Shown here: positions 9,644-58,472 of the stretch, one piece after another
Position numbering within the stretch: position 1 is the first letter of the stretch
How the letters are laid out: each line of letters opens with the position of its first letter
Source of the DNA: Pyrinomonadaceae bacterium
Lineage (GTDB): Bacteria; Acidobacteriota; Blastocatellia; Pyrinomonadales; Pyrinomonadaceae
Length of the DNA: 64,000 bases
Assembly (NCBI GenBank): GCA_035276685.1
Contig: DATELK010000065.1
Location: 10,387 to 74,386 of the forward strand
Direction: 5' to 3'
Made by a program: the position numbers and the translations under genes
The notes under the pieces: model-generated
Told to the model about the DNA's origin: nothing
Seen by the model: the letters and a program-made list of their open reading frames with translations, nothing else
Databases searched by the model: none

Positions 9644-9933
9644 CGAAATCTTCTCCGGTGACGTTCGGAAATGCCGAATAAAAAGTTTTTGAGCCTGCTC
9701 TGGCGGTCAAACGAGCCGGGGAGTGCTCGTCCTGAGGTAAAAGAGGATACCCGGAGGCACAACCTTGGCTCTTTGCTACCGCCGCCTTAGAATCTAATTA
9801 AAATCCTAATAGGCTCTATCTTTTAGTAAATGGAGCGCGCTCCTGTGGGGCGAGCCTCAGCTACCACGTCTCTGGCAGGTCTGGGAAGATTAACATTTTC
9901 GCCTCGCTCGCATCAAAGCGCAGAGCGCACCAA

Positions 9934-10025
9934 GTCAGTGCCGCCTGCGGTAGCGGGCGGGTCTTTAGTCTCAAACATGACTCTAGACAAACTAATACCC
10001 GCCCGCTACCGCAGGCGGTACTGAC
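9934..10025. repeat. 92-bp palindromic element, copy 1 (29-bp GC-rich inverted arms, conserved loop)
   Basis: Left arm GTCAGTGCCGCCTGCGGTAGCGGGCGGGT, 34-nt loop containing CATGACTCTAG, right arm ACCCGCCCGCTACCGCAGGCGGTACTGAC. There is one G:T position in the stem. It lies 27 nt downstream of the wzt stop, so it could also act as a terminator hairpin. Confidence 0.9.
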
Positions 10026-10052
10026 CTGTTTGTCGTCTCTGAAACTGACCTA

Positions 10053-17101: not shown

Positions 17102-18283
17102 TTAGACGGCGATGCTCTCTTCGACCAGAACCAGCGAGCGCACTTTCTCTCGCAGAGCCAGCTCAAAGCGGCGCGCCTCTTCAATCTCGGAGAAGGCCAG
17201 CGCGCGAAGCTCCTGCTCTATGCGGCGGCGATAGTCAGAGACGAGCGAGTCTGAGACTCCAAGAGCGCTCGCCACTTCCAGCTGCGTCGAATGCTCCGGG
17301 CTCAGGTAACAGTGCCACAGCACGCCGAGCATGCGGTTGTACTGCTTGACCTTCCCGCGCACGCTCTCGTGCAGGCCCTTCAAAAACTGCTCGACGCATC
17401 CGGCGGCGGCCTGCTCCGACTCGCGCCTCAAGAGCCCCTCTTCGGGATTGTCGCCAACGTCCACGGGCTCAAACTGCATCCCGCCTTCTTCGCCGTCGTC
17501 GCCTCCTAGCGGCACGAGGTAGATGTCCATGACGGGGAGCCTCGACATCACAAGGCTGCGAAGCGCGCGCACGTCCACGGGAGAGTCCACCGCCTCAAGG
17601 ACGGAGATAATAAGGTCTTCCAAATCAGAGTTGCTGATGACCACCTGAGCGTCGCCCGTGCAGCCCACCATGCGCGTGTCGCGCTGGCGCATCGGTATCA
17701 TCTGCACTCTCTGCTCAAGCTCATGCGTCTCGCGCCTTCCCTTCCCGTCGGGCCACTCCGAGAGGCCATAGACGCGGTCAACAAGGCGGCGGTGCGGCTC
17801 GTCGTTCATGCCCGAAGAGTCGAAGCGGCGGAAATTGGCGCTCGATTGAATCAGGGTAGAGATGCGGCGGGCCAGTCTATAGGATTCCGGGTGACGCTTG
17901 CGTAGCTCTGCCGTCAGAAGATTTGTCAGCTCAATCTGCCCTATCTCGCACTCGATTTCGGCATCGGTCATCCCAGTGTCCAGATAATGCTGAAAGCGCC
18001 CCTTGCTCAAAAGCTGCACGAACAGCTCCTGCGTGAGGTCTGTGTAAGCGTTTTGCGCCCCCTCTTCGACAAGGAGCCCTGCGCTGCGGGAGGCGCGCAC
18101 GAGCGGGTGATGACAGACGACGCGGTGCAGGTCGCTCCAGAGCTGTGAAACGTCCGAGCGCTTGAGGCTGTTAACCCACTGTATGCTCTTCGGTTGGCGC
18201 TCCCTAAAGGCGCGTTGCGAGCGCGGCTGTTCCTTCAGAGCGCTCATGGTTGATTCGGGATGATTAGTGCCGGTAGCTTTCAC
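17102..18283 (-). CDS. Hypothetical regulator with sigma-70-like region 2 and region 4 (HTH) remnants
   Basis: 393 aa, GTG start. AYTDLTQELFVQLLSKGRF resembles sigma region 2.1/2.2. The C-terminal STQLEVASALGVSDSLVSDYRRRIEQELR resembles a region-4 HTH. A long acidic insertion lies between them. Confidence 0.35.
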   Translation of the reverse strand: MKATGTNHPESTMSALKEQPRSQRAFRERQPKSIQWVNSLKRSDVSQLWSDLHRVVCHHPLVRASRSAGLLVEEGAQNAYTDLTQELFVQLLSKGRFQHYLDTGMTDAEIECEIGQIELTNLLTAELRKRHPESYRLARRISTLIQSSANFRRFDSSGMNDEPHRRLVDRVYGLSEWPDGKGRRETHELEQRVQMIPMRQRDTRMVGCTGDAQVVISNSDLEDLIISVLEAVDSPVDVRALRSLVMSRLPVMDIYLVPLGGDDGEEGGMQFEPVDVGDNPEEGLLRRESEQAAAGCVEQFLKGLHESVRGKVKQYNRMLGVLWHCYLSPEHSTQLEVASALGVSDSLVSDYRRRIEQELRALAFSEIEEARRFELALREKVRSLVLVEESIAV

Positions 18284-19044
18284 GATGATTTGTCTTCAGG
18301 TCTGGTATTTTGTGCAAGGACTCTGGGATAAGCAGGCAATGGCTAACCTTTAAGATAGTACCGCCGGGTAACGCTTGTGTTTCATCTCGCGGCGCATGTG
18401 CTGTCTTAGCTCATCTGGTTCAAGCTGGTCAGAGGCGACGCGTGAAGGCTGACATCTTTTATGAGCGGATCACCTTTGCCAGATTTGAACAGGGGTGGCG
18501 GGTTTGCGCCTCTGGCCTCGTCTGATGAGCGCGGCCAGCCGTGCGCAATTAAAGTCGGGCAGCGATTATTCGTTACCTCTTTCCCAAGGGTTGTCAAACT
18601 GGGCCCAAACGAGGGGCCAATTTTGCTTTGAGACCTTGCCGGGAAACCGCGCTTATTCTGACCGCAAAGGGGAATCGGCGCGGCCAGGCTAGATAGGGGA
18701 ATCAAGGAGCGCAGTGGCATCCCTGACTGACGTTTAAGATGTTATCAGCAAATACTTTTTTGAGCAACATCTTTTTACACACTGGCCAAAATATTGATAA
18801 GACTTGAAAAAAAGGGCCCGGAGGGGGCGGAAGTTTTGGAAGCTGCGGGCAATTAGCGCTTTCCTTTTGATGACCAGGCTAGAGCGCCCTTTGGTTCGAG
18901 AGGATGTCATGGCGGCTCCTCGTCTCTGCTTGCCCCACAAGTTTGCTGCCAATTTTGCGGGAGGCGCTCCGTTTTACACAGGCCGGTCAAGGATGCTCTA
19001 CGAACTACGAGCAAAAGAGGTAAGCCCACAGTAAGGGTGAGCAT

Positions 19045-19368
19045 ATGAGGACTTCAAGCATCACGGTGTTTTCCAAGCAGGCTAGCTGCCCCTCAGCCGA
19101 GACGCTCGTTTCATACAATACTTCAACACTTTCGGCGGGCGCTCGGGCGCACGTCCTGGAGCATCTCTCGTCCTGCGAGTTCTGTAGCGCGGAGCTGAAA
19201 CTGCTGTCCGAGCACACACCGCTTGAGGAAGAGTACCGCGCAGCGGAAATCCCAGCGCACCTGCGCTCGCTGGCCGAGGCTCTTATGGGCCAGACGGAGC
19301 TATCGGGCATACTCTCTCTCAGGGAAATCTCCTGCGAGCCGGAGCGGCTGACGCTGACGGACGCTTAA
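19045..19368 (+). CDS. Soluble zinc-binding anti-sigma factor-like protein (ZAS, zf-HC2 motif)
   Basis: 107 aa with Cys15 followed by HLSSCEFC (H-x3-C-x2-C) at residues 40-47. No TM segment. Size and Cys/His spacing resemble RsrA-type ZAS proteins. AAGGGTGAG lies upstream of the ATG. Confidence 0.55.
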   Translation: MRTSSITVFSKQASCPSAETLVSYNTSTLSAGARAHVLEHLSSCEFCSAELKLLSEHTPLEEEYRAAEIPAHLRSLAEALMGQTELSGILSLREISCEPERLTLTDA

Positions 19369-19387
19369 AAATCTTGAAATAGATGCT

Positions 19388-19426
19388 AAAAGGCACTAAG
19401 CAGAGATAATTTGCTTAGTGCCTTTT
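19388..19426. terminator. Bidirectional intrinsic terminator hairpin between convergent genes
   Basis: AAAAGGCACTAAGCA - 9-nt loop - TGCTTAGTGCCTTTT. The stem is a perfect 15 bp flanked by an A-run and a T-run. It lies between the stop at 19368 (+) and the stop at 19454 (-). Confidence 0.8.
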
Positions 19427-19453
19427 ATTGTGACGCGTCCTTGATTTATCTCT

Positions 19454-22156
19454 TCAAATACGAATCTCTTCAAGGCAGGCCCTGACCTCGCGGGCCAGCA
19501 CCTGTACGTGCGGCTCGTCGTACATGTTCAGGTGATTGCCGGGCACTATGCGAACGTCCACGCCGCCCGAGGCCAGCTCCTTCCATCCCTTGTCGCGGCC
19601 GAGCGCGCGGAAGACGGGCTGGGCTCGGGTGCGAAAGAGCGTGACGCGCCCCTCATAGCGCCGCGCCTCGTAGCCCGCAAGGGCCTGAAACAGCGCTTCG
19701 CTCACGCGGCGATGATTGTCCGGCAGAAGCGCCACGTCCAGCATGTCTTCCAGATTTTCCCTGTGGGCTTCTACGTGCAGCGGGCCAATGCGGCTGAAGA
19801 GGTTTCGCCCGACCCGCTTCAGGTGCCTTTTGACATCGGCGGCGACTTCGCGCGGCTGTCGCTTGAAGACGTGGTCGGCCAGCCAGTAGGGAAGGTTCAG
19901 CGCCGTGTGGAGAAGGCGAGCCGCGCTGATTCCCTGCTCATTCGAGCCCGGCGCTTCTTCGTCCAGCACGGCGAGGAGCGCTATCTCCTCTCCGCTCTCC
20001 TGTAGCTGCTGGGCCATCTCGAAGGCTATCACGGCCCCGAGCGAGTAGCCGCCGAGTATGTACGGCCCCGAGGGTTGAACGCTTCGCACAATCTCCACGT
20101 AATGCGAGGCCATGGCGCGCATGTCCGTGAAGGGCTCTTCAAGGCCGTCGAGCCCGCGCGCCTGTATGCCGTAGAAGGGATGGGCCGAGCCGAGGTAGCG
20201 CGCAAGCGTGCCGTAACCGAAGACCTCGCCGCCTATCGGGTGCATGAAGAAGATAGGCGTGCGCTCGCCCTCTGTCTGAATCTCCACGAGCGAAGACCAC
20301 CTCTTCTCGGGCACATGCGACTCTATGACTCGCGCCAGGTGCTCTATAGTCCCTTCGTGTATGAGGGCCGAGAGCGGGATGTTCTTGCCAAGGCTGTCAT
20401 GAACCTCAAGCAGCATGCTGACGGCCAAAAGCGAGTCGCCGCCAAGCTCGAAGAAGTTGTCGCGCACGCCTATGGGAGAGATGCCTAGCACGCCTTCCCA
20501 GATTTCCTTAAGCTCGCTCTCAATCTGTGTGCGCGGTGACTCCGTGGCTTCGCCCGGCTCGTGTATGGGGCTCGGGCTGTGCGCGGCGAGCGAGAGGCGG
20601 TCGACTTTTCTGCTCGGCGTCAGCGGCATCGTCTCAAGATGCACGAAGCCCGAGGGCAGCATGTAATCCGGCAGCCTCGCCGCCAAAAACTCCCGCAGCT
20701 CTTTGGCCGTGGCAGTTTTTCCGGCATCCTTCGAGACCCAGTAGGCCATGAGCCGCTTGTTGCCCGAAGCATCCTCGCAGACGAGCGCCACGCTCTGGCC
20801 CACAGCTTCGTGCTGCGAGAGCGCCGATTCTATCTCGCCAAGCTCTATGCGAAAGCCGCGTATCTTGACCTGGCTGTCGGCCCTTCCCAGAAACTCTATG
20901 TCGCCGGAGGGCAGCACGCGCCCGAGGTCTCCAGTCCTGTAGAGCCTTGCGCCGCCGTGAATGTCGAAGGGGTCAGGGACGAATCTCTCTGCGGTCAATT
21001 CGGGCCGCTCAAGGTAGCCGCGCGCAAGGCAGACGCCGCCCACGTAAATCTCGCCCGCCTCGCCTGCCCCGACCCTTTGGAGTCGCTCGTCTAGCACGTA
21101 AACCCGTGCGCCGTCTATAGGCCTGCCTATGGGAACGGAAGAGGCGTTTGCCGAAAGCTCTCGCGTGTCGCAGAAGGTGGCGTCGGCAGCCGCTTCCGAC
21201 GAGCCGTAGAGGTTAAGAAGCGTCGTCTCAGGCGCGCTCTTTCTAAAGCGCTCGCAAAGCTCTGGCGAAAGCGCCTCGCCGCTGCTGACGCAGACCTTAA
21301 GCTGCGGCAGTCTTCGCCCAAGCTCCGGCTCCGCGTCCAGCATGGCGCGCAGGAGCGACGGCACGAGCACGATTCTCGTCACCTTCCGCCGCGCCAGAGT
21401 CTCTATAAGCCTGCGCACGTCCTTCACATCTTCATCGGGGATGATGACTAGAGGCACGCCTTTGAGGAGCGGCCCGAAAATCTCCCACACGGAATCTACG
21501 AAGCTGAGCGCAGTCTTCTGGCACAAGACCTCTCCGGTCTCGAAAGGAAAGGCGCGCCACATCCACTGGAAGCGATTGACCGCGCCCTTGTGCAAGCCCT
21601 GAACGCCTTTGGGCCTGCCCGTAGAGCCGGAGGTGTAAGCCACGTAAAGCAGATTTTCGCCCGTCAGCCCGGACGGCGGATTATCGGAGCGCGCGTCAGC
21701 CAGACGACCATCCATTTCATCCAGCACAATCACCCGCGCGTCGTGCTCTGTAAGCGTGCCGGAGAGTTTTTTCTCAGTCAGTAAAAACGTGGGACGCGCG
21801 TCCGCGAGCATGAAAGAGAGCCTCTGCTTCGGGTACGAGGGGTCGAGCGGAAGGTAAGCGCCGCCAGCCTTTATGACGGCGAGGATGGCCACGAGCATCT
21901 CAGCGGAGCGCTCCGCGTGAATGGCACAAAGGGTTTCGAGGCGAGCGCCAAGCGAAAGCAGGTGATGCGCCAGACGGTTCGCGCGCTCGTTCAGCTCTCG
22001 GTAGCTGAGCCGCTGCTCTTTGAAGTAAACGGCCACACTGTCAGGCGTGCGCTCTGCCTGCTCCTCGAAGAGTTGCTGTATGGATAAGGCTTGCGGCTCC
22101 CGCACTTGAATAAAGTTATCGGCTGACGAAGGATTGTATAGTTCGACTTTCAGCAT
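19454..22156 (-). CDS. Single-module NRPS-like protein: adenylation - thiolation (PCP) - thioesterase
   Basis: A-domain cores LSYRELNERANRLAHHL, YVAYTSGSTGRPKGV, NLYGSSE, YRTGDLGR, GRADSQVKIRGFRIELGEIE, PLTPSRKVDR. PCP motif FFELGGDSLLAV. TE motif GGYSLG. The track ORF extends to a TTG at 22282, but that TTG is part of a TTGACA-18-CATACT promoter-like motif, so ATG 22156 is preferred. Confidence 0.85.
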   Translation of the reverse strand: MLKVELYNPSSADNFIQVREPQALSIQQLFEEQAERTPDSVAVYFKEQRLSYRELNERANRLAHHLLSLGARLETLCAIHAERSAEMLVAILAVIKAGGAYLPLDPSYPKQRLSFMLADARPTFLLTEKKLSGTLTEHDARVIVLDEMDGRLADARSDNPPSGLTGENLLYVAYTSGSTGRPKGVQGLHKGAVNRFQWMWRAFPFETGEVLCQKTALSFVDSVWEIFGPLLKGVPLVIIPDEDVKDVRRLIETLARRKVTRIVLVPSLLRAMLDAEPELGRRLPQLKVCVSSGEALSPELCERFRKSAPETTLLNLYGSSEAAADATFCDTRELSANASSVPIGRPIDGARVYVLDERLQRVGAGEAGEIYVGGVCLARGYLERPELTAERFVPDPFDIHGGARLYRTGDLGRVLPSGDIEFLGRADSQVKIRGFRIELGEIESALSQHEAVGQSVALVCEDASGNKRLMAYWVSKDAGKTATAKELREFLAARLPDYMLPSGFVHLETMPLTPSRKVDRLSLAAHSPSPIHEPGEATESPRTQIESELKEIWEGVLGISPIGVRDNFFELGGDSLLAVSMLLEVHDSLGKNIPLSALIHEGTIEHLARVIESHVPEKRWSSLVEIQTEGERTPIFFMHPIGGEVFGYGTLARYLGSAHPFYGIQARGLDGLEEPFTDMRAMASHYVEIVRSVQPSGPYILGGYSLGAVIAFEMAQQLQESGEEIALLAVLDEEAPGSNEQGISAARLLHTALNLPYWLADHVFKRQPREVAADVKRHLKRVGRNLFSRIGPLHVEAHRENLEDMLDVALLPDNHRRVSEALFQALAGYEARRYEGRVTLFRTRAQPVFRALGRDKGWKELASGGVDVRIVPGNHLNMYDEPHVQVLAREVRACLEEIRI

Positions 22157-22252
22157 AAAGAAGAGGCACAGCTTAACCCTCGTTTCGTGTGCGACTAGGC
22201 GAGTAAAGGCAGACCGGGTAACAGGCTTTAGCGGCCCAACGGCGCGCTTGAG

Positions 22253-22282
22253 AGTATGGATTCTCAGGCGCACGCCTGTCAA
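22253..22282 (-). promoter_or_regulatory. Candidate sigma-70 promoter for the NRPS-like gene
   Basis: On the minus strand: TTGACA (22282..22277), 18-nt spacer, CATACT (22258..22253). Located in the gap downstream of the acyl-CoA ligase stop (22332). Confidence 0.35.
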
Positions 22283-22331
22283 GATTTATAGTCTTACGGC
22301 TCTGTTAAAAGGTGAGGTGGGCCAGGCGTGA

Positions 22332-24151
22332 TTACTCCGAAGCGCCGTAAAGCTCGTCAATCAGGTCAGAGTATTTCTCGTCGACTATGCGTCTTTTGAC
22401 CTTCAAGGTGGGCGTCAGCTCGCCGCCGTCAATGGTGAACTCTTCCGGCAGCAGGGCCACGCGGCGCACCCGTTCGTAATCGGCAAGCTCCGTAGTGAGC
22501 TGAATGATTTCGCGCTGGACTATCTTGACGGCTTCGGGCGCGCGGCTCAGCTCTGCGCGCCCTCGCGGCGGCTCCGAGCCGTTCTTCTGCATGGCTTCAG
22601 AGAGCGCTTCCCAATCGGGGACGATGAGCGCGGCGGGCTGCTTGCGGCCCGCTCCTATGACAACGACCTGGCTGACAAGCTCGCTCTGCTTGATGAGGCT
22701 CTCTACCAGTTGCGGCGCGACGTACTTGCCGTTCGAGAGCTTGAAGAGGTCTTTCTTGCGGTCTGTGATGTAGAGGTGGCCGCGCTCGTCCATGCGGCCA
22801 ACGTCGCCGGTCGCGAACCAGCCGTCCTTCAGCACTTCACTCGTCTCTTCCGGCTTGCCGTAATAGCCGCGCATGACGTTCGGCCCGCGCACCACTATCT
22901 CTCCGTCCTCCGCAATCTTCACTTCCATCCCCGGAAAGACCAAGCCGACAGAGCCCACCTGGTTATCCTCGGGGCGGTTGGCAGAGACGATGCAGGTCTC
23001 TGTCATGCCGTAGCCCTGAAGAATTGGAATGCCTGCGGCCATGAAGGAGAAGGAGAGCGTGGGCGAAAGCGGCGCGCCGCCCGAGACGAAGAAGCGCAGG
23101 CGGCCGCCTACGCCTTCGCGCCACTTTGAGAAGACGAGGCGGTCTGCCACAGACTGCTTGAACTTGAGCGAGAGGGGAATGCGCTCACGCTTGTCCTTCA
23201 ACTCCGCGTAGCGCAAACCCGTCCGCATGGCATCTTCAAAGACCTTTCGCTTCCAGCCTTTGGCGGACATACCGCGCTTGACTATCTTGTGATAGACCTT
23301 CTCGAAGAGCCTCGGCACGGCCGTCATAATCGTCGGGCGCACTTCGCGCAGGTGCTCGCCCACCTGGTCGAAGGAGGCAGAGTAATGCACGGAGACGCCC
23401 GTGTAGCAGAAGACGTAAAAGACCGCGCGCTCGAAGATGTGCGAAAGCGGCAGCACCGAAAGCGCCACGTCAGAAGTGTAGATGGGAAGCGAGCCCGCGA
23501 TTGAAAGGACGTTCGAGACGAAGTTGTTGTGCGAGAGCATCACGCCCTTAGGCTCGCCCGTAGTCCCGGAAGTGTAGATGACGGTCGCAAGGTCATCGAG
23601 GCTCACGGCTGAAAGAAATCGCTCGAAGGCTTCCGGCTCACGCTCTGCCCTGGCGCGTCCAAGCTCTTCCAGTTCTGAAAGCTTTCCGCCGCGCTCCACT
23701 CCTTCGTCCGCGCCTTCGTCAAAGAAGATGATTCGCTCAAGCTGCTCAAGGCCGTCGATTCCGGGCCGCGCGTGCTTGAAGACTTTTTTGCCCGAGACGA
23801 ACAGGAGCCGCGCGCCTGAATCCCCGAGGATGTAGCGCACCTGCTCCACGGCTTGCGTCGTGTAGATGGGAACGTTGACGGCACCGAGGCTCAGGATTGC
23901 GAGGTCAACGATTGACCATTCGGGGCGGTTCTCGGAAAGCAGCGCGACGCGGTCGCCGGGCTTGACGCCAAGCTCCGAGAGCCCCAGCGCGATACGCTCT
24001 ATGCGCGTGAGAAACTCCGAGGCAGAGATGCGCTCCCAGCGCCCGTCTCGCTTACGGTTAAGCGCGTCCGGCTTAGAGTGCTCGCGCACGCCCGACAGGC
24101 ACATCGCCGGAAGGGATTGAAAATCGGAGGCGGATTCTACCTTTTGACTCA

Positions 24152-24152
<1 letters not shown>
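22332..24152 (-). CDS. Long-chain acyl-CoA (AMP-forming) ligase, FadD/ACSL-like
   Basis: [63 protein letters not shown] at 24152 overlaps the UXS TGA (TGATG). The track start is the TTG at 24155. Confidence 0.85.
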
Positions 24153-26101
<1,949 letters not shown>

Positions 26102-26154
26102 CAGTAACCCCTCTTCCGTAGGGCAGATTATTAGAACAACGATTATTGAATCAA

Positions 26155-26574
26155 CTACTCGGGGAGCGCGCCGCCCGGCTTCAGCGCCAGCGTGCAGCGC
26201 GAGACGCACACCATACGGTCGCGCTCGTCCTTTATCTCTATGGCCCAGACGTTCATCTGTCTTCCTATGTAGACGGGACGGGCTTCCGCCACCACGCGGC
26301 CCTTGGTCACAGAGCGCAGGTGATTGGCGTTTATCTCTACGCCGACGGGCGTGTAGCGTGTCAGGTCTGTGTTGAGCGCCGCGCCGATTGAGGCGGCAGT
26401 TTCGGCAAGCACGACCGAGACGCCGCCGTGCAGGAGCCCCGTGTACTGGTGAACGCGCTCTGTGACAGGCATGGAGAGAACAACGCGGTCTCGCTCGGCT
26501 GCCTCAACCGTGATGTCCAGAGTCTCAAGGACAGTGTGGCCTCGTCTGCTTCGCAAAGTTTCAAGCACGTTCAT
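26155..26574 (-). CDS. Hotdog-fold thioesterase (PaaI / DHNA-CoA hydrolase family)
   Basis: 139 aa. ...ERDRVVLSMPVTERVHQYTGLLHGGVSVVLAETAAS... is typical of PaaI-type thioesterases. Confidence 0.75.
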   Translation of the reverse strand: MNVLETLRSRRGHTVLETLDITVEAAERDRVVLSMPVTERVHQYTGLLHGGVSVVLAETAASIGAALNTDLTRYTPVGVEINANHLRSVTKGRVVAEARPVYIGRQMNVWAIEIKDERDRMVCVSRCTLALKPGGALPE

Positions 26575-32454: not shown

Positions 32455-32524
32455 GGCTTGAAAGATTTCCGGCGAATCTGAAACCCTAGTAGATTGCGCG
32501 CGACAAATCAAGCGCACAGAAAGG

Positions 32525-32613
32525 AATTAACAGGGATAGACAGGATAGACAGGATAAAGAAGAAGCAAGCTCTTCTCTTTTTATCCTGTCTATCCTGTCT
32601 ATCCCTGTTAATT
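32525..32613. repeat. CAGGAT-hairpin repeat, copy A (palindromic ~85-bp intergenic element)
   Basis: AATTAACAGGGATAGACAGGATAGACAGGATAAA ... TTTATCCTGTCTATCCTGTCTATCCCTGTTAATT. The arms match perfectly for about 33 nt, and each arm carries three CAGGAT motifs. It lies 14 nt downstream of the stop of 32627..33646. Confidence 0.9.
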
Positions 32614-32626
32614 TCTCTTCCTCAAT

Positions 32627-45582: not shown

Positions 45583-45666
45583 AACAGGATGGACAGGATA
45601 AGCAGGATAAAAGAAGAATAAATGCTTTCTCTTTTTATCCTGTGCATCCTGTCCATCCCTGTTAAT
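45583..45666. repeat. CAGGAT-hairpin repeat, copy B
   Basis: AACAGGATGGACAGGATAAGCAGGATAAAAGA ... TCTTTTTATCCTGTGCATCCTGTCCATCCCTGTTAA. The arms are imperfect. The TAA stop of 45662..46573 is the TTAA of the repeat. Confidence 0.85.
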
Positions 45667-51007: not shown

Positions 51008-51088
51008 TAACAGGGATGGACAGGATAGACAGGATGAAAGTGAAAGCTATTTCTTCTTTATCCTGTTCATCCTGTCCATCCCTGTTAA
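51008..51088. repeat. CAGGAT-hairpin repeat, copy C
   Basis: TAACAGGGATGGACAGGATAGACAGGATGAAAG ... TTTATCCTGTTCATCCTGTCCATCCCTGTTAA. It supplies the TAA stop of 51085..52296. Confidence 0.85.
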
Positions 51089-52310: not shown

Positions 52311-52389
52311 AACAGGGATGTGCAGGATGAACAGGATAAAGAAGAGATGCTTTATCTTTTATCCTGCCTATCCTGTCCATCCCTGTTAA
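52311..52389. repeat. CAGGAT-hairpin repeat, copy D
   Basis: AACAGGGATGTGCAGGATGAACAGGATAAAGAAGA ... TTTTATCCTGCCTATCCTGTCCATCCCTGTTAA. The last 13 codons of 52352..53383 (EINRDGQDRQDKR) are read from this repeat. Confidence 0.85.
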
Positions 52390-54737: not shown

Positions 54738-56708
54738 CTAGAACTCTACCTTAAACTGCTCTGTCCAGCGAATCAGGTTCAGCCAGCGCCACACCCTGAA
54801 GTCAAAAGAGCGCCTGCCTTCGAGTATCTCTTCCCACTCGCGCCTCACGTGCGACAGGTTCAGGACGGGGATACTCCGAGCCGCGTCGCTTGCGAAAACC
54901 TGTTCGACCCAGGGCTTGAGCGCGGCGAGCCAGGAGCGCTCGGGCGTGGCAAAGCCTATCTTGTCCCTGCGCTCAAGAATAGCTTCGGGGACGATGCCGC
55001 GCATGGCCTGACGGAAGACGGATTTTGAAGTCCCGTCCGGGGCTATCAGGTACTCTTCCGGCAGACTGTAGATGAACTCGACCAAGGGTGTAGTTAAAAA
55101 CGGCACGCGGCTCTCGACGGAATGGGCCATCGAGTTGCGGTCTTCGTAGCGCAGCAGCATGGGCAGGCTGCTATCCACAAGCGTGTCGTGAAGCTGCTCT
55201 TGCAGGAGTCTCTGGCCGCGGCTTTTAAAGGGCTGTCTGGGCTCTACTCCCCTTTGGGCAAACCAGCGCTCGTTGAGCCACGAAGGGACGGCTCCATTCT
55301 GCGTCGCGTGTCTGACAAGGCGGCGTATGCTGGTCGGCAGCAGCGCCCCTCCGGCGCTCGCCATCAGATTTATCCCCTTCATCTGCGGCAGCGTCTCGAC
55401 CTGCTTGATAAAGCGATTGGCCTCCATCAAGCGCCCCTTTCGCAGCAGGGAGGCGACGCGCGCAGTCATATAGAAGGGATAGCCAGCGAGCAGCTCGTCC
55501 GCGCCCTGCCCGTCGAGCATGACCTTGATTCCGGCCTCGTGCGCCAGACGAAAAACGCGGTACTGGGCATAGATGCTGGTGCTGCCGAAGGGCTCGTCCT
55601 GCGTTCCTATGAGACGGTCTATGTCCTCGGTCAGCTCTTCAATAGTCGGGCGCACTTTATGAGCATGCGCGCCCGCGTCCTGTATGACTAAATCCACCCA
55701 GCGCTCTTCGCTCACGGCCGGGTCGTCCGCCGTGTAGCTGAAAGTATGTATCTCAAGGCCGGGATTCAGGTGGCGCATGGCCGTCACTATGGCCGAAGAA
55801 TCTATCCCGCCCGAAAGCGCCGTGCCTACAGCCACGTCGCTTCTCAGGTGCAAGCCTATGCTCTCAAGGAAAAGCTCTCTGAGCCTCGCGGCAGCTTCGT
55901 CAAATGAGAGGTCTGCGTTCGTATTAAGGTCAACTTGCCAGTAGCGCTGAAGGCGCGGCCTTACGTCTTTATCCCCGAGCGTCAACAACAGGAAGTGCGA
56001 GGCCGGAAGCTGTCTAATCTCGGCGAACGCGCTCTCGGTTCCGTAGTCCGTGATTCCGAACCGGAGATAATCATAAACCCTGTCGGGATTGACCTGTCTC
56101 TTTACGCCGAAGCATTCGAGCAGCACCTTTATCTCGGAGGCGAAGGCGAAGCGCTCGCCGTCGTCAACGTAATAGAGAGGCTTAATCCCGAACGGGTCGC
56201 GCGCCAGAAAAAGCCTCTTCTCCCGCCTGTCCCACAGGGCGAAGGCCCACATGCCTATGAAGCGCTGTAGACAATCCACGCCCCAGCGCTGGTACGCGGC
56301 TAAGATGACTTCCGTGTCCGTGCCCGTGCGGAAAGCGTAGCCCTCGCGCTCAAGCTCCGCCCGCAGCTCTATGTAGTTATAGATTTCGCCGTTGAAGATA
56401 ATCCAGCAGTTACCGTCAGCGCTCTGCATGGGCTGATGGCCCGCGCGCGAGAGGTCAAGAATTGAGAGGCGGCGAAAGCCTAAAGCCAGATTGAACGGCC
56501 CGTCCGTAGAGCCGCTTATCTGAGGCTCACTTATGCCCTCTATCGTGTCACTCCCGACGAAGGCGTGCGCGCGTCCCGTCAGTGTATCGGCAAGCAGATG
56601 GCCTTCGTCGTCCGGCCCGCGATGGCGCAGGACGCGTGCCGCCCGCTCAAGAGCCGACGCGTCTACCTGTTTGCCGCCCGCGTAATGTATGCCGAAGATG
56701 CCGCACAT
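54738..56708 (-). CDS. asnB: Asparagine synthase (glutamine-hydrolysing) family amidotransferase (second copy)
   Basis: MCGIFGIHY Ntn-Cys start and SGGIDSS PP-loop. First gene of the long minus-strand block. Confidence 0.85.
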   Translation of the reverse strand: MCGIFGIHYAGGKQVDASALERAARVLRHRGPDDEGHLLADTLTGRAHAFVGSDTIEGISEPQISGSTDGPFNLALGFRRLSILDLSRAGHQPMQSADGNCWIIFNGEIYNYIELRAELEREGYAFRTGTDTEVILAAYQRWGVDCLQRFIGMWAFALWDRREKRLFLARDPFGIKPLYYVDDGERFAFASEIKVLLECFGVKRQVNPDRVYDYLRFGITDYGTESAFAEIRQLPASHFLLLTLGDKDVRPRLQRYWQVDLNTNADLSFDEAAARLRELFLESIGLHLRSDVAVGTALSGGIDSSAIVTAMRHLNPGLEIHTFSYTADDPAVSEERWVDLVIQDAGAHAHKVRPTIEELTEDIDRLIGTQDEPFGSTSIYAQYRVFRLAHEAGIKVMLDGQGADELLAGYPFYMTARVASLLRKGRLMEANRFIKQVETLPQMKGINLMASAGGALLPTSIRRLVRHATQNGAVPSWLNERWFAQRGVEPRQPFKSRGQRLLQEQLHDTLVDSSLPMLLRYEDRNSMAHSVESRVPFLTTPLVEFIYSLPEEYLIAPDGTSKSVFRQAMRGIVPEAILERRDKIGFATPERSWLAALKPWVEQVFASDAARSIPVLNLSHVRREWEEILEGRRSFDFRVWRWLNLIRWTEQFKVEF

Positions 56709-56746
56709 TTGGAATCGTATTTAAGCTGCGTCGAGATTGGTTTGAC

Positions 56747-56775
56747 AGAATAAACGTTTCAATGCCGATTTGCAA
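56747..56775 (-). promoter_or_regulatory. Candidate sigma-70 promoter for the minus-strand polysaccharide block
   Basis: On the minus strand: TTGCAA (56775..56770), 17-nt spacer, TATTCT (56752..56747), about 40 nt upstream of the asnB ATG at 56708. Confidence 0.35.
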
Positions 56776-56780
56776 AAACA

Positions 56781-56872
56781 GGTCAGTACCGCCTGCGGTA
56801 GCGGGCGGGTTATTAGATAAGCATGACTCTAGCCCAACTGATACCCGCCCGCTACCGCAGGCGGTACTGACC
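56781..56872. repeat. 92-bp palindromic element, copy 2
   Basis: GGTCAGTACCGCCTGCGGTAGCGGGCGGGT - 32-nt loop with CATGACTCTAG - ACCCGCCCGCTACCGCAGGCGGTACTGACC. Same orientation and homologous loop as 9934..10025. Confidence 0.9.
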
Positions 56873-56950
56873 TAACTCTTTGAAAAACGCTGATGACAAA
56901 CAGCCACATATATAACTCTTTGGCGCAACTGATGCGTTAAGTATGACGGA

Positions 56951-57223
56951 GCTAAAATCAACCCGGACACGCCTGAAATCGCTCAAGACAGCCGAAAATT
57001 CGCCTCATGCAGCTTGAAAACCGGCTCAGGCAGAGTATAAATCGCCTCAGTCAGCCGCAAAATTGCCTAAGACAGCGACAAAATCGGCTCATACACTGTG
57101 AAAATCGCTTGATACAGCGCGAAAATCGACTCATACAAACGCGAAATCCGTTCAGTCACTGTAGAAATTGCTTCATACACTGTGGAAATCGGTTCATACA
57201 ATGCAGAAATCGGTTAATACAGC
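56951..57223. repeat. Array of 13 degenerate 21-bp direct repeats (phased A-tracts)
   Basis: Unit consensus GNGAAAATCGNYTCATACANY. The AAATC/AAATT core recurs at 56955, 56976, 56996, 57018, 57039, 57060, 57081, 57102, 57123, 57144, 57165, 57186 and 57207. Spacing is 20-22 bp over the first five intervals and exactly 21 bp for every interval from 57039 onward. Confidence 0.9.
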
Positions 57224-57281
57224 GTGGATGTGGGGTTTAGCGGGGTGAAAGTAGTGGGTCGGTTTCAGGATTTGCCCCTCT

Positions 57282-57310
57282 TTGACTAAAGATATGGAGC
57301 GTGTTATATC
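57282..57310 (+). promoter_or_regulatory. Candidate sigma-70 promoter for the plus-strand aminosugar operon
   Basis: TTGACT (57282..57287), 17-nt spacer, TATATC (57305..57310), about 110 nt upstream of the TTG start at 57420, which is preceded by AAGGAGG (57406..57412). Confidence 0.4.
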
Positions 57311-57319
57311 CTTTTTTGC

Positions 57320-57334
57320 TTTGAACCGTTCAAA
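57320..57334. promoter_or_regulatory. Operator-like perfect palindrome just downstream of the candidate -10
   Basis: TTTGAAC-C-GTTCAAA (7-bp arms, 1-nt centre), 10 nt after the TATATC hexamer. Confidence 0.3.
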
Positions 57335-57419
57335 ATTCTGCTCAATGATATTATCCCAGCCTGTAGCTTGATCCACTCTGCGCAGATAGTCTTTAGGGGA
57401 TGTTGAAGGAGGCTTAATA

Positions 57420-58472
57420 TTGTCGAATAATCTGCCCAAGGGGTCTGGCGATGCGAGGGAAGAATCTGCCGCGCCCACGTCACACTCCTGGTCTGACCGG
57501 CCCGTGCTGGTGACAGGAGCGGGGGGATTCATAGGCAGTCATTTAGTAGAAACGCTGCTTAAGGGTGGAGCGAGGGTGCGCGCCTTCGTGCGCTACAACT
57601 CGCGCCGGGACGCGGGGCTTTTGAGGCTGCTCTCGCCTGAGCTAATGAAGTCCTGCGAGATAGTCTACGGAGACCTGCGCGATTCGGACGCGGTGGACAA
57701 GGCTTCCAGAGGCGTTGATACAATCTTTCATCTGGGCGCGCTGATAGGCATTCCTTACTCATACGTTCACCCGCGCGAAGTCGTGGACACCAACGTCACT
57801 GGCACTCTGAACGTGCTCATGGCAGCCGAGCGCAACAAGGTCAGAAAGGTCGTCAACACTTCCACGAGCGAAGTCTACGGCACGGCCATCTACACTCCTA
57901 TAGACGAGAAGCATCCCTTGCAGGGACAGTCGCCTTATTCGGCCAGCAAGATTGGAGCGGACAAGATAGCGCAGAGCTTCTATTGCACCTTCGGCTTGGA
58001 GGTCGCCACGATTCGCCCCTTCAACACCTTCGGCCCCAGACAATCCGCGCGAGCCGTGATTCCGACCATCATCACGCAGGCTCTCGTCAAGGATACGGTT
58101 CATCTCGGAAGCCTTGAGCCGCGCCGCGACTTCACCTTCGTCACAGACACGGTGGATGCTTTCCTACGTATAGCCGCCTCGCCCAAATCAGCGGGCCGGG
58201 AGATTAACGTAGGCTCGGATGCCGAGATATCAATCGGAGAGCTGGCTGCGAAAATCATCAAGATGATTGGAAGGGATGTTGAAATCACCTGCGACACCGA
58301 AAGGGTGCGGCCCGACCGCAGCGAGGTGCAACAATTGTGGGCCGATGCAAGCCAAGCCTCCGAGCTGATAGGCTGGAAGCCCCAAGTCGGTTTCGACGAA
58401 GGATTGAGACGAACCATAGACTGGATACAGGCTCACCTCGACCTGTATCAGGTGGGACAATATCAGGTATAA
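57420..58472 (+). CDS. NDP-hexose 4,6-dehydratase-like extended SDR (LegB/RmlB-like)
   Basis: VLVTGAGGFIGSHLVETLL, TSTSEVYG, SPYSASKIGADKIAQSF (YxxxK). TTG start with a strong SD. First gene of a dehydratase-nucleotidyltransferase-aminotransferase trio. Confidence 0.75.
   Translation: MSNNLPKGSGDAREESAAPTSHSWSDRPVLVTGAGGFIGSHLVETLLKGGARVRAFVRYNSRRDAGLLRLLSPELMKSCEIVYGDLRDSDAVDKASRGVDTIFHLGALIGIPYSYVHPREVVDTNVTGTLNVLMAAERNKVRKVVNTSTSEVYGTAIYTPIDEKHPLQGQSPYSASKIGADKIAQSFYCTFGLEVATIRPFNTFGPRQSARAVIPTIITQALVKDTVHLGSLEPRRDFTFVTDTVDAFLRIAASPKSAGREINVGSDAEISIGELAAKIIKMIGRDVEITCDTERVRPDRSEVQQLWADASQASELIGWKPQVGFDEGLRRTIDWIQAHLDLYQVGQYQV

What the first reader, a model, noticed from the sequence alone, without database searches (positions are those of the whole stretch)
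56951..57223. Thirteen phased 21-bp direct repeats in the divergent control region
Seen in sequence:
- There are 13 head-to-tail units of consensus GNGAAAATCGNYTCATACANY. The AAATC core recurs every 21 bp, exactly so for the last 9 units.
- The array lies between the 92-bp palindrome and the plus-strand promoter candidate.
- 21 bp is two helical turns, so the A4 tracts and any bound protein would all face one side of the helix.
- 21 is also 7 codons. ORF 57007..57240 therefore reads as a heptad peptide (..ENRLIQRENRLIQ..CRNRLIQ..), but it has no SD, and the repeats start upstream of its ATG, beyond an in-frame stop.

Inference: this is most likely a DNA-level feature. It could be a cooperative regulator-binding (iteron-like) array or intrinsically bent DNA that controls the two divergent glycan operons. 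A repeat-number change would be a plausible switch.
Basis: partly seen in the sequence, partly recalled or inferred. Interest (0 to 1): 0.65.

Follow-up and report, generated by a model that had tools for sequence, protein, structure and literature searches.

The report
Phased 21-bp repeat array upstream of promoter
Between two back-to-back sugar-polymer operons of an uncultured soil acidobacterium lie 13 degenerate but perfectly phased 21-bp repeats that its closest relatives lack; they are non-coding DNA and most likely a docking platform for a DNA-binding protein, but this is untested and they occur in only one genome.

Summary
Window 56951-57223 is exactly 13 x 21 bp with no net indel. AAA (positions 5-7) and CA (18-19) are essentially invariant; other columns vary freely.

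The array is non-coding:
- substitutions show no codon bias (18/18/20);
- there is no SD, gene call or homologous family;
- there is no Rfam hit or stable RNA fold.

The array lies about -95 to -370 from a sigma70-like promoter (57283-57311) conserved in four relatives. The contig is a Pyrinomonadaceae MAG. Three syntenic relatives (~91% aa identity) keep both promoters but have a 55-bp spacer in place of window 56778-57277. That 500 bp holds a dispersed palindrome plus the array. The 55-bp spacer contains one unit-like sequence, so the array probably expanded in situ and is dispensable.

- Best reading (0.4): a phase-constrained, same-face binding platform for an unidentified protein on curved DNA.
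- Main rival (0.3): a neutral minisatellite in a fast-evolving spacer.
- Predicted curvature is strong but generic to any 21-bp repeat.
- A repeat-number switch is unlikely: units are ~62% identical and the longest exact internal repeat is 12 bp.
- No replicon or plasmid/phage link was found.

Interest is modest.

The parts
56951..57223 (.). Array of 13 head-to-tail 21-bp units. Consensus is about GyGAAAATCGgyTCAtACAgc, with a bipartite core of AAAT(C) at positions 5-9 and T.A..CA at positions 13-19. Units 1-6 are more degenerate (TCAgGCA / TaAGACA variants). Units 7-13 are TCATACA-type with a 63-bp higher-order period.
57224..57265 (.). Two further in-phase 21-mers (GTGGATGTGG..., GTGAAAGTAG...) that look like decayed units without the core. 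The GAAAGT(A)GTGG stretch resembles the right end of the relatives' 55-bp spacer. This is a weak inference.
   Evidence: by eye; not tested statistically
56778..57277 (.). Lineage-specific 500-bp segment: palindrome, 77 bp, array, 54 bp. In the three closest relatives it is replaced by a 55-bp spacer.
   Evidence: blastn and MAFFT against L096, L103 and L104
56780..56873 (.). Palindromic element with perfect 31-nt arms and a 32-nt loop. It is one copy of a dispersed REP/MITE-like element and is not part of the repeat array.
9932..10027 (.). Second copy of the same palindromic element, in another intergenic gap. No 21-bp array lies next to it.
57283..57311 (+). Plus-strand sigma70-like promoter: TTGACT, 17 nt, TATATC, followed by the conserved leader GCTTTGAACC. 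It is conserved in L096, L103, L104, L097 and L100. If this is the promoter, the array lies about -95 to -370 from the start site.
   Evidence: sequence comparison. Not reported by the consensus scanner, whose rule requires T at -10 position 6.
56744..56772 (-). Candidate minus-strand promoter for the AsnB-led operon. On the minus strand it reads TTGCAA, 17 nt, TATTCT. It lies in a block conserved with L096, L103 and L104.
   Evidence: consensus resemblance plus conservation only
57007..57240 (+). Heptad-like 77-aa ORF created by the 21-bp period. Judged spurious.
57420..58472 (+). First gene of the plus operon: an SDR sugar-nucleotide dehydratase/epimerase with a TTG start preceded by GAAGGAGG (57405-57412).
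54738..56708 (-). First gene of the minus-strand glycan cluster: an AsnB-like amidotransferase.

Best explanation
The array is non-coding, non-transcribed upstream DNA. It is a lineage-specific 21-bp minisatellite that most likely grew in situ from a unit-like sequence in the short spacer between two back-to-back divergent promoters. It has since been held under constraint on helical phase (exactly two turns per unit) and on a bipartite core: AAAT(C), about 4 nt, then T.A..CA.

The most likely mechanism is as follows. Each unit is an asymmetric site whose two blocks, about 10 bp apart, face the same side of the helix. Thirteen in-phase sites let a sequence-specific DNA-binding protein, not yet identified, load cooperatively along one face of intrinsically curved DNA. 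The resulting nucleoprotein filament or loop would lie about -95 to -370 from the plus-operon promoter and would modulate that promoter, either activating or silencing it. It would also move the two divergent promoters 500 bp apart.

Shown: the anatomy, phase, positional constraint, non-coding nature, position relative to the conserved promoters, and absence in relatives.
Inferred: protein binding, cooperativity and any effect on transcription.
For: 1. Exact phase. The array is 273 = 13 x 21 bp with no net indel, despite at least 56 substitution events. In the flanking blocks aligned to L096, gaps are common: 14 gap positions against 48 mismatches.
2. Substitutions are over-dispersed across columns. 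On a neighbour-joining tree of the units the dispersion is 2.0 (p = 0.006). Five columns never change, AAA at 5-7 and CA at 18-19 (p = 0.003). A simple mismatch test gives p < 1e-4.
3. There is no coding signal. Codon-position changes are 18/18/20, and an invariant third position sits beside variable first and second positions. No SD, Pfam hit or gene call exists.
4. There is no RNA signal. Rfam finds nothing, and fold z-scores are +1.0 and -0.55.
5. The array lies upstream of a promoter conserved across relatives down to 75% amino-acid identity.
6. Predicted curvature is the strongest in the window: end-to-end/contour 0.477, against a mean of 0.93 for 1275 windows and 0.65 for the next unrelated window. 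It disappears at periods of 19, 20, 22 or 23 bp.
7. The relatives' 55-bp spacer holds a unit-like sequence, AGCTGAAAATCCGGCTC, that aligns best to unit 4 (9 of 500 shuffles score as well). This points to amplification of a pre-existing site.
Against: - L096, L103 and L104 carry the same operons and promoters without the array, so it is not required for basic expression.
- The relatives' spacer evolves faster than the promoter blocks: about 8 of 55 differences between L096 and L104, against 2-3 per block, counted by eye from the alignment. The seed is therefore not obviously a conserved operator.
- No regulator gene was identified in the 64-kb window. The only hint is a weak sigma70 region-4-like match (E = 0.064) in a family-wide core protein.
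- A PWM scan finds no additional sites in 64 kb beyond chance.
- No related array was found in 185,579 species genomes, JGI metagenomes, viral contigs, plasmids or phages, so cross-species conservation cannot be tested.
- Thirteen sites is more than ordinary operators need.
- The statistics rest on 13 short units with shared ancestry.
Confidence: 0.4

Rival explanations
1. Neutral minisatellite. A 21-bp piece of a weakly constrained promoter spacer was amplified by slippage or unequal exchange and is now decaying. It has no function beyond being tolerated.
For: - The array is present in one lineage only; three close relatives have a 55-bp spacer.
- The same spacer also accepted a dispersed palindromic element. 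This genome carries a second palindromic family in four other intergenic gaps, so spacers here accumulate repeats.
- The spacer evolves faster than the promoter blocks.
- Edge units are more degenerate.
- There are no other motif copies in 64 kb.
- Unrelated 21-bp arrays are common across phyla.
- Mean unit divergence (38%) is close to four-fold-site divergence from the sister clade (35%), which fits unconstrained decay since about the time of the split.
Against: - Column-wise over-dispersion and five never-changing columns (p about 0.003-0.006).
- No net indel across 273 bp, although indels are frequent in the flanking alignments.
Confidence: 0.3
2. A purely architectural element. Phased A-tracts make a planar bend of about 170 degrees that acts on the promoters without a sequence-specific partner, for example by wrapping RNA polymerase or recruiting a curvature-sensing nucleoid protein.
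For: - The most conserved columns form the A-tract.
- The unit's summed twist is 718 degrees, about two turns.
- This is the most curved 273-bp window among 1275 in two wedge models (0.477 and 0.528).
Against: - 29% of random 21-mers repeated 13 times are at least as curved, and 9% of column-permuted arrays are. Curvature is therefore not evidence of selection.
- The second conserved block (T.A..CA) is not explained by curvature.
- There is only one A-tract per two turns.
- The wedge parameters were taken from memory of Bolshoy and Trifonov (1991).
Confidence: 0.12
3. Contingency (phase-variation) locus. Gain or loss of units changes promoter geometry and switches glycan expression.
For: - The array sits between promoters of surface-glycan operons, the classic setting for such switches.
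- Relatives differ in unit number (1-2 unit-like sequences against 13).
Against: - Units are only about 62% identical and the longest exact internal repeat is 12 bp. There is no homogenisation, unlike the slippage-prone repeats known from the literature (background knowledge).
- The array lies 60 bp upstream of the -35 element, not in the promoter spacer.
- No copy-number variants were found. The only other contigs of this strain stop at the palindrome or do not reach the array.
Confidence: 0.05
4. The heptad ORF 57007-57240 is translated into a small repeat peptide, or is a remnant of a repeat-protein gene.
For: - This frame is open for 77 codons while the other five frames have stops.
- Absence of indels would also suit a reading frame.
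- phmmer finds heptad-repeat ORFs down to E = 4e-18.
Against: - No SD, and the ATG is a mutated repeat core (TCATGCA).
- Codon-position changes are 18/18/20, with an invariant third position beside free first and second positions.
- No Pfam hit.
- The ORF was not called in the source assembly and its product is on record nowhere.
- The phmmer hits inspected are unrelated low-complexity or eukaryote-like satellite ORFs.
- Relatives have no gene at this position.
Confidence: 0.02
5. Iterons or a centromere-like site of an integrated plasmid, phage or ICE replicon or partition system.
For: The form matches: about 20-bp asymmetric direct repeats, phased two turns apart and present in many copies. 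The comparison with known iterons is from background knowledge.
Against: - No Rep, Par, integrase or relaxase domain in any ORF scanned.
- No DnaA box in the spacer.
- No similarity to 72,556 plasmids, 50,697 phages or IMG/VR contigs.
- The flanking genes are syntenic chromosomal glycan genes in relatives.
Confidence: 0.02

Closest known systems
Plasmid and phage iterons (for example R6K gamma ori 7 x 22 bp, P1 oriR/incA 19-bp iterons, pPS10 4 x 22 bp, lambda ori 4 x 19 bp); background knowledge
   Same: Tandem, same-orientation, asymmetric units of about 19-22 bp. They repeat at about two helical turns, have a conserved core and variable edges, occur in many copies and are associated with DNA bending.
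   Different: No initiator gene, DnaA boxes or AT-rich unwinding element. The array sits in a chromosomal glycan locus that is syntenic in relatives lacking it. No sequence similarity to any plasmid or phage record.
Partition centromeres and operator arrays bound by RHH or ParR-type proteins (pSK41 parC 20-bp repeats, R1 parC 11-bp x 10, F sopC 43 bp x 12); background knowledge
   Same: Arrays of direct repeats that load a protein cooperatively into a curved or solenoidal complex. They often double as promoter operators.
   Different: No par genes nearby, and this is not a plasmid. The unit sequence is unrelated.
Direct-repeat operators spaced two helical turns apart (LytTR/AlgR/AgrA/ComE-type pairs of 9-bp repeats with 12-13-bp spacers; P2 C repressor half-sites, PMC1904263)
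   Same: Direct rather than inverted repeats with centre-to-centre spacing of about 21-22 bp, placed upstream of promoters. AlgR-type regulators control exopolysaccharide operons.
   Different: Those operators have 2-3 sites, not 13. No LytTR or other regulator gene was found in the window. The motif does not match the consensus sequences I recall for these families. This is a lead from memory, not a test.
Promoter-associated simple-sequence contingency repeats (H. influenzae hmw 7-bp repeats, N. meningitidis nadA TAAA, hif TA repeats); background knowledge
   Same: Tandem repeats in the control region of surface-structure genes. Repeat number differs between lineages.
   Different: Those units are 1-7 bp and near-identical, and they change by slippage. 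Here the units are 21 bp and about 62% identical, with exact repeats of at most 12 bp.
Phased A-tract curved DNA upstream of bacterial promoters (PMC3940949, PMC3372288 for the periodicity background)
   Same: A-tracts in helical phase, predicted planar bend, upstream location.
   Different: One A-tract per 21 bp rather than per 10-11 bp. A second conserved non-A-tract block is present. The curvature is not exceptional for a 21-bp repeat.
Other degenerate 21-bp arrays found here (Acidobacteriota MAG JAUPLE01 loci L022/L048/L061/L089, Aminicenantes L083, Alloprevotella RGIG4801)
   Same: Long, degenerate 21-bp arrays with 42- or 63-bp higher-order periods in intergenic DNA. In L048 and L089 they lie directly upstream of large genes.
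   Different: The unit sequences are unrelated (dyad TCAnnTGA core, or CATGTGCACGAGG...). They are multi-copy within their genomes and lie next to STAND-NTPase genes, not glycan genes. The shared 21-bp period was imposed by my search pattern.

Membership tests
Replicon iteron array | Tandem 17-22-bp direct repeats in helical phase | tested here: met
   13 x 21 bp in strict phase
Replicon iteron array | Adjacent initiator (Rep) gene | tested here: not met
   Pfam scans of 46 window ORFs, covering nearly all of the large ones, show only glycan-synthesis, transport, NRPS-like and unknown proteins
Replicon iteron array | DnaA boxes or an AT-rich unwinding element next to the repeats | tested here: not met
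   No TTATCCACA match (up to 1 mismatch) in 56709-57419. GC is 45-49%, with no strongly AT-rich block
Replicon iteron array | Sequence relatives on plasmids or phages | tested here: not met
   blastn (distant mode) against plasmids and phages found no match. The viral contig pattern scan gave 0 hits
Slipped-strand contingency locus | Near-identical repeat units that can misalign | tested here: not met
   Mean pairwise difference 38%; longest exact internal repeat 12 bp
Slipped-strand contingency locus | Copy-number polymorphism within a population or among strains | not testable with these tools
   No reads are available. The only other contigs of this strain end in the palindrome or do not reach the array. 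More distant relatives have 1-2 unit-like sequences
Protein-coding heptad repeat | Open frame with translation signals | tested here: not met
   The frame is open for 77 codons, but there is no SD, the ATG lies inside a mutated core, and no gene was called
Protein-coding heptad repeat | Excess of third-codon-position change | tested here: not met
   Fitch changes by codon position are 18/18/20. Position 5, a third codon position, is invariant while positions 3-4 vary
Protein-coding heptad repeat | Conserved homologous proteins | tested here: not met
   No Pfam hit. phmmer against 1.84 billion representatives gave 43 hits; the 8 inspected were generic heptad or low-complexity ORFs
Intrinsically curved upstream DNA | A-tracts in phase with the helix and predicted curvature above background | tested here: met
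   End-to-end/contour 0.477 against a window mean of 0.93; the two most curved of 1275 windows both overlap the array
Intrinsically curved upstream DNA | Curvature beyond what the repeat period alone gives (a sign of selection for bending) | tested here: not met
   29% of random 21-mers repeated 13 times, and 9% of column-permuted arrays, are at least as curved
Intrinsically curved upstream DNA | Anomalous gel mobility | not testable with these tools
   Requires an experiment
Transcription-factor operator array | Position-specific conservation of a core within the units | tested here: met
   Dispersion 2.0, p = 0.006; five zero-change columns, p = 0.003
Transcription-factor operator array | Cognate regulator gene nearby, or further sites elsewhere (a regulon) | tested here: not met
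   No regulator domain was found in the window ORFs. The PWM scan finds nothing beyond chance in 64 kb. The rest of the MAG could not be searched
Transcription-factor operator array | Conservation of the sites in orthologous promoters | tested here: not met
   L096, L103 and L104 have only one unit-like sequence in a fast-evolving spacer. L097, L100 and L101 have none
Structured RNA or riboswitch | Rfam match, or a fold better than shuffles | tested here: not met
   Nothing at gathering scores; at the permissive E-value threshold only chance-level matches, the better ones all on the palindrome. Fold z-scores +1.0 and -0.55
Dispersed REP/MITE-type element | Multiple copies in the genome | tested here: not met
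   The array motif occurs only here in the 64 kb. The neighbouring palindrome does meet this feature, with 2 copies

The most novel reading that the evidence does not exclude
The array is a snapshot of de novo birth of a regulatory super-operator. A single site between back-to-back promoters was amplified in situ to 13 helically phased sites, and selection now maintains their phase and core. A chromosomal regulator polymerises on one face of a roughly 170-degree bend to form a solenoid-like enhancer, silencer or insulator for a 46-kb glycan cluster. This would be an iteron- or centromere-style nucleoprotein architecture co-opted for transcription control in Acidobacteriota. Similar 21-bp arrays upstream of other genes in the phylum might reflect the same principle.
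Probability: 0.12. Interest if true: 0.6.

Novelty: new member of a known kind. Interest (0 to 1): 0.3.

Why it matters
If the array is functional, it would show how a multi-site, helically phased protein-loading platform can arise by amplifying one spacer sequence between divergent promoters. That would offer a route to rapid, lineage-specific rewiring of surface-glycan expression in a phylum where regulation is almost unstudied.

If it is neutral, it is a useful caution. A 21-bp period automatically produces an open heptad ORF, strong predicted curvature and an iteron-like look, and none of these is evidence of function on its own.

Either way the feature is confined to one metagenome-assembled genome, so its general importance is limited for now.

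Tried and rejected
- RNA element: Rfam finds nothing at gathering scores and only chance-level matches at the permissive threshold, the better ones on the palindrome. RNA folds of both strands are no better than shuffles.
- Coding: no Pfam hit. Codon-position test negative. phmmer against 1.84 billion representatives returned 43 hits, and the 8 inspected were generic heptad or low-complexity ORFs. The best look-alike, P0136, sits on a 40% GC, gene-poor, eukaryote-like contig with a perfect unrelated 21-bp satellite. The exact ORF product is on record nowhere.
- Homologous arrays elsewhere:
  - The three-unit skeleton pattern in 185,579 species genomes returned 91 loci, all with unrelated unit sequences.
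  - The stricter pattern in JGI metagenomes gave one chance hit with no array, and none in IMG/VR.
  - The palindrome arm was not found in IMG/VR.
- Replicon or mobile origin: no plasmid or phage similarity, no DnaA boxes, no Rep, Par or integrase domains.
- Copy-number variation: other contigs of the same strain (Logan SRR5195140: L003, L099) end inside the palindrome or do not reach the array. No closer relatives exist in the 90% clusters.
- Regulon: a PWM scan of the window found nothing beyond chance.
- Candidate binder: the 393-aa protein at 17102-18283 has only a weak sigma70 region-4 hint (E = 0.064). It is a family-wide core protein, 79-94% identical across the 120 best hits listed, mostly Pyrinomonadaceae/Acidobacteriota MAGs, so it is not specific to the array.
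- Sigma-54 promoter next to the array: none seen by eye.
- Conserved leader of the plus operon as a structured RNA: the alifold signal is weak (-8 kcal/mol).
- Literature: four full-text searches found no precedent for this array.

Full report
**1. The observation**

Window 56951-57223 is a real tandem array.
- Tandem Repeats Finder reports period 21 at 56989-57091 (score 60) and 57080-57221 (score 100). It also finds a 63-bp higher-order period (score 154).
- AAAT anchors recur at 56955, 56976, 56996, 57018 and 57039, then every 21 bp to 57207.
- Read in strict 21-bp phase from 56951, CA occupies positions 18-19 in 13 of 13 units. AAA occupies positions 5-7 in 12 of 13; in unit 3 the A-tract is shifted by 1 nt.
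- The array is therefore exactly 13 x 21 bp with no net indel. The apparent 20- and 22-bp units cancel.
- A three-unit skeleton pattern matches 7 times here and never in 100 shuffles.
- The neighbouring palindrome has perfect 31-nt arms at 56780-56810 and 56843-56873.

**2. Context**

- The window is a metagenome contig, ENA ERZ27257058 k141_1975326 (80.7 kb). Its proteins are in NCBI as 'MAG TPA: Pyrinomonadaceae bacterium' (HKS27267.1, HKS27268.1). That places it in Acidobacteriota.
- The array lies in a 711-bp intergenic region, 56709-57419.
- On the minus strand an AsnB-like gene heads a roughly 46-kb cluster. It encodes glycosyltransferases, sugar-nucleotide enzymes, Wzm/Wzt-type ABC transport, Wzy_C proteins and NRPS-like adenylation enzymes.
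- On the plus strand the operon encodes an SDR dehydratase, a nucleotidyltransferase, a DegT aminotransferase, a radical-SAM/SPASM protein and a methyltransferase.
- No DNA-binding regulator domain was found. The only hint is a weak sigma70 region-4 match (E = 0.064) in a 393-aa protein. That protein is 79-94% identical across the 120 best homologs listed, mostly Pyrinomonadaceae/Acidobacteriota MAGs, so it is a core gene not tied to the array.

**3. Comparison with relatives**

- Three loci from other samples (L096, L103, L104) share the gene order on both sides; their dehydratases fall in the same 90% cluster (L096's is 91% identical to the window's).
- Both promoter blocks are conserved in them.
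- On the plus strand, TTGACT-17 nt-TATATC (window 57283-57311) followed by GCTTTGAAYC is also kept in relatives at 75-78% identity (L097, L100).
- On the minus strand, TTGCAA-17 nt-TATTCT (56772-56744) lies in a block conserved with the three close relatives.
- Between these blocks the relatives have only 55 bp. The window has 500 bp (56778-57277): the palindrome, 77 bp, the array and 54 bp.
- The palindrome is a separate dispersed element. A second copy lies at 9932-10027 with no array beside it.
- The relatives' 55-bp spacer contains AGCTGAAAATCCGGCTC, which aligns best to unit 4 (9 of 500 shuffles score as well).
- The array is therefore lineage-specific. It probably expanded in situ from spacer sequence, and it is not needed for the basic promoter architecture.
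- No closer relative exists in the protein collection. The only other contigs of this strain stop in the palindrome or do not reach the array. Copy-number variation could not be examined.

**4. Coding or DNA-level**

- All frames except one have stops.
- The open frame has no SD. Its ATG is a mutated repeat core. It was not called as a gene in the source assembly, and its product is on record nowhere. It has no Pfam hit.
- Parsimony changes by codon position are 18/18/20. Unit position 5, a third codon position, never changes while positions 3-4 vary freely. This is the opposite of protein-level constraint.
- phmmer against 1.84 billion representatives returned 43 hits; the 8 inspected were generic heptad or low-complexity ORFs. 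One look-alike sits on a eukaryote-like satellite.
- Rfam and RNA folding give nothing.
- Both candidate promoters fire away from the array, so it is probably not transcribed.

**5. Evidence of constraint**

- Mismatches are very unevenly spread over the 21 columns.
- After correcting for shared ancestry with a neighbour-joining tree of the units, the 56 inferred changes are still over-dispersed (dispersion 2.0, p = 0.006). Five columns never change, AAA at 5-7 and CA at 18-19 (p = 0.003).
- Units differ by 38% on average. That is about the four-fold-site divergence from the sister clade (35%), so the array is old rather than recent.
- It nevertheless has no net indel. The flanking alignments to L096 show 14 gap positions against 48 mismatches.
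- These points favour selection on helical phase and on a bipartite core whose two blocks lie about one helical turn apart.
- They are the main argument against a purely neutral minisatellite. They rest on 13 short, related units.

**6. Curvature**

- I implemented the Bolshoy-Trifonov wedge model, with parameters recalled from the literature.
- The array has an end-to-end/contour ratio of 0.477 and a bend of about 170 degrees.
- The two most curved of 1275 equal-length windows both overlap the array. The window mean is 0.93 and the next unrelated window scores 0.65.
- A pure AA-wedge model gives 0.528.
- This is generic to the period. In the model, 29% of random 21-mers repeated 13 times are at least as curved. 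The consensus unit becomes straight at periods of 19, 20, 22 or 23 bp.
- Curvature is a real predicted property, but it is not evidence of design.

**7. What it is not**

- Not a replicon origin or centromere. There are no Rep or Par genes, no DnaA box in the spacer, and no plasmid, phage or viral similarity.
- Not a dispersed element. The motif occurs only here in 64 kb.
- Not a credible slippage switch. The longest exact internal repeat is 12 bp.
- No homologous array was found in 185,579 species genomes or in JGI metagenomes.

**8. Verdict**

- Best explanation (0.4): a phase-constrained array of asymmetric binding sites. An unidentified protein would load cooperatively on one face of curved DNA, about -95 to -370 from the plus-operon promoter.
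- Main rival (0.3): a tolerated, decaying minisatellite in a fast-evolving spacer. The same spacer also took up a palindromic element, and this genome carries another palindromic family in four nearby gaps.
- Pure curvature: 0.12.
- Contingency switch: 0.05.
- Coding: 0.02.
- Replicon or centromere site: 0.02.
'Controls both operons' and 'repeat-number switch' are not supported.
- In kind this is another phased direct-repeat array in a promoter region, and it is confined to one MAG. Interest is modest.

Noticed in passing
window 56780-56873 and 9932-10027: A roughly 95-bp palindromic element with 31-nt near-perfect arms and a partly conserved loop (CATGACTCTAG) occurs twice, both times in intergenic DNA. 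It looks like a REP/MITE-type dispersed element. The Logan assembly of SRR5195140 breaks inside its arm.
   Followed up: partly
window 32522-32616, 45584-45658, 51008-51087, 52311-52387: A second family of intergenic hairpin elements is built from tandem 9-mers, (GGATrGACA)n followed by the inverted (TrTCCTGTC)n, with AACAGGGAT...ATCCCTGTT ends. Four copies sit in gaps between minus-strand glycan genes. They could be REP-like elements or intra-operon terminators or processing sites.
   Followed up: partly
window 24152-26209 (-): A 685-aa NAD-dependent epimerase/dehydratase is split into two Epimerase matches, with a LAGLIDADG_3 hit at residues 411-466. This suggests an intein or homing-endonuclease insertion in a sugar-nucleotide enzyme.
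   Followed up: no
window 17102-18283 (-) and the ORF-poor gap 18284-19453: A 393-aa protein has no Pfam domain and only a weak sigma70 region-4-like C-terminus (E = 0.064). It has more than 2600 homologs; the 120 best listed are 79-94% identical, mostly Pyrinomonadaceae/Acidobacteriota MAGs. That is far more conserved than the surrounding glycan genes. A 1.17-kb stretch with no convincing ORF lies upstream of it.
   Followed up: partly
window 57312-57419, with L096, L104, L097 and L100: The roughly 100-nt leader of the plus operon is better conserved than the coding sequence. It includes GCTTTGAAYC just after the -10, GCGCmGATA, AAGGAG and a TATTGTC start region. It may be an ops/JUMPStart-like or other leader signal. 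The alifold support for a structure is weak.
   Followed up: partly
window 19454-24155 (-): An NRPS-like adenylation-PCP-thioesterase protein (942 aa) and a second AMP-binding enzyme (607 aa) are embedded in the glycan cluster. This hints at an acyl- or aminoacyl-modified polysaccharide.
   Followed up: no
window 1697-9643 (-): A giant 2648-aa protein carries Kelch repeats, malectin, GSDH-like and GH115_C domains. It sits at the distal end of the cluster, next to the second palindrome copy.
   Followed up: no
L022 1400-1728, L048 2192-2513, L061 2952-3312, L089 263-877, L083 6924-7160: An Acidobacteriota MAG (JAUPLE01) and an Aminicenantes MAG carry 240-650 bp of degenerate 21-bp arrays at several loci. 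At least three JAUPLE01 loci (L048, L061, L089) hold two unit types side by side: TTTCAGGTGATTTTAGAGTTG with a TCAnnTGA dyad, and CATGTGCACGAGGTCTCCGTG. In L048 and L089 the arrays lie directly upstream of roughly 1110-aa Metallophos + NB-ARC + TPR (STAND NTPase) genes.
   Followed up: partly
loci L008, L012, L013, L015, L019, L031 and others (Alloprevotella sp. RGIG4801, JAFUTC01): More than 20 separate loci in one Alloprevotella MAG carry arrays of a 21-bp unit, AAATTGCATTATGCAATTTCG, with a dyad TTGCAT.ATGCAA core. This is a genome-wide dispersed 21-bp repeat family.
   Followed up: no
L105 5060-5250: A gene-poor, 40% GC, eukaryote-like metagenome contig carries a near-perfect 21-bp satellite, GAAAACAGGCTGAGCCAGTCC. 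Its called ORF (SENRLSQ heptads) is 67% identical to the window's spurious ORF. This shows how 21-bp satellites produce look-alike 'proteins' in databases.
   Followed up: yes
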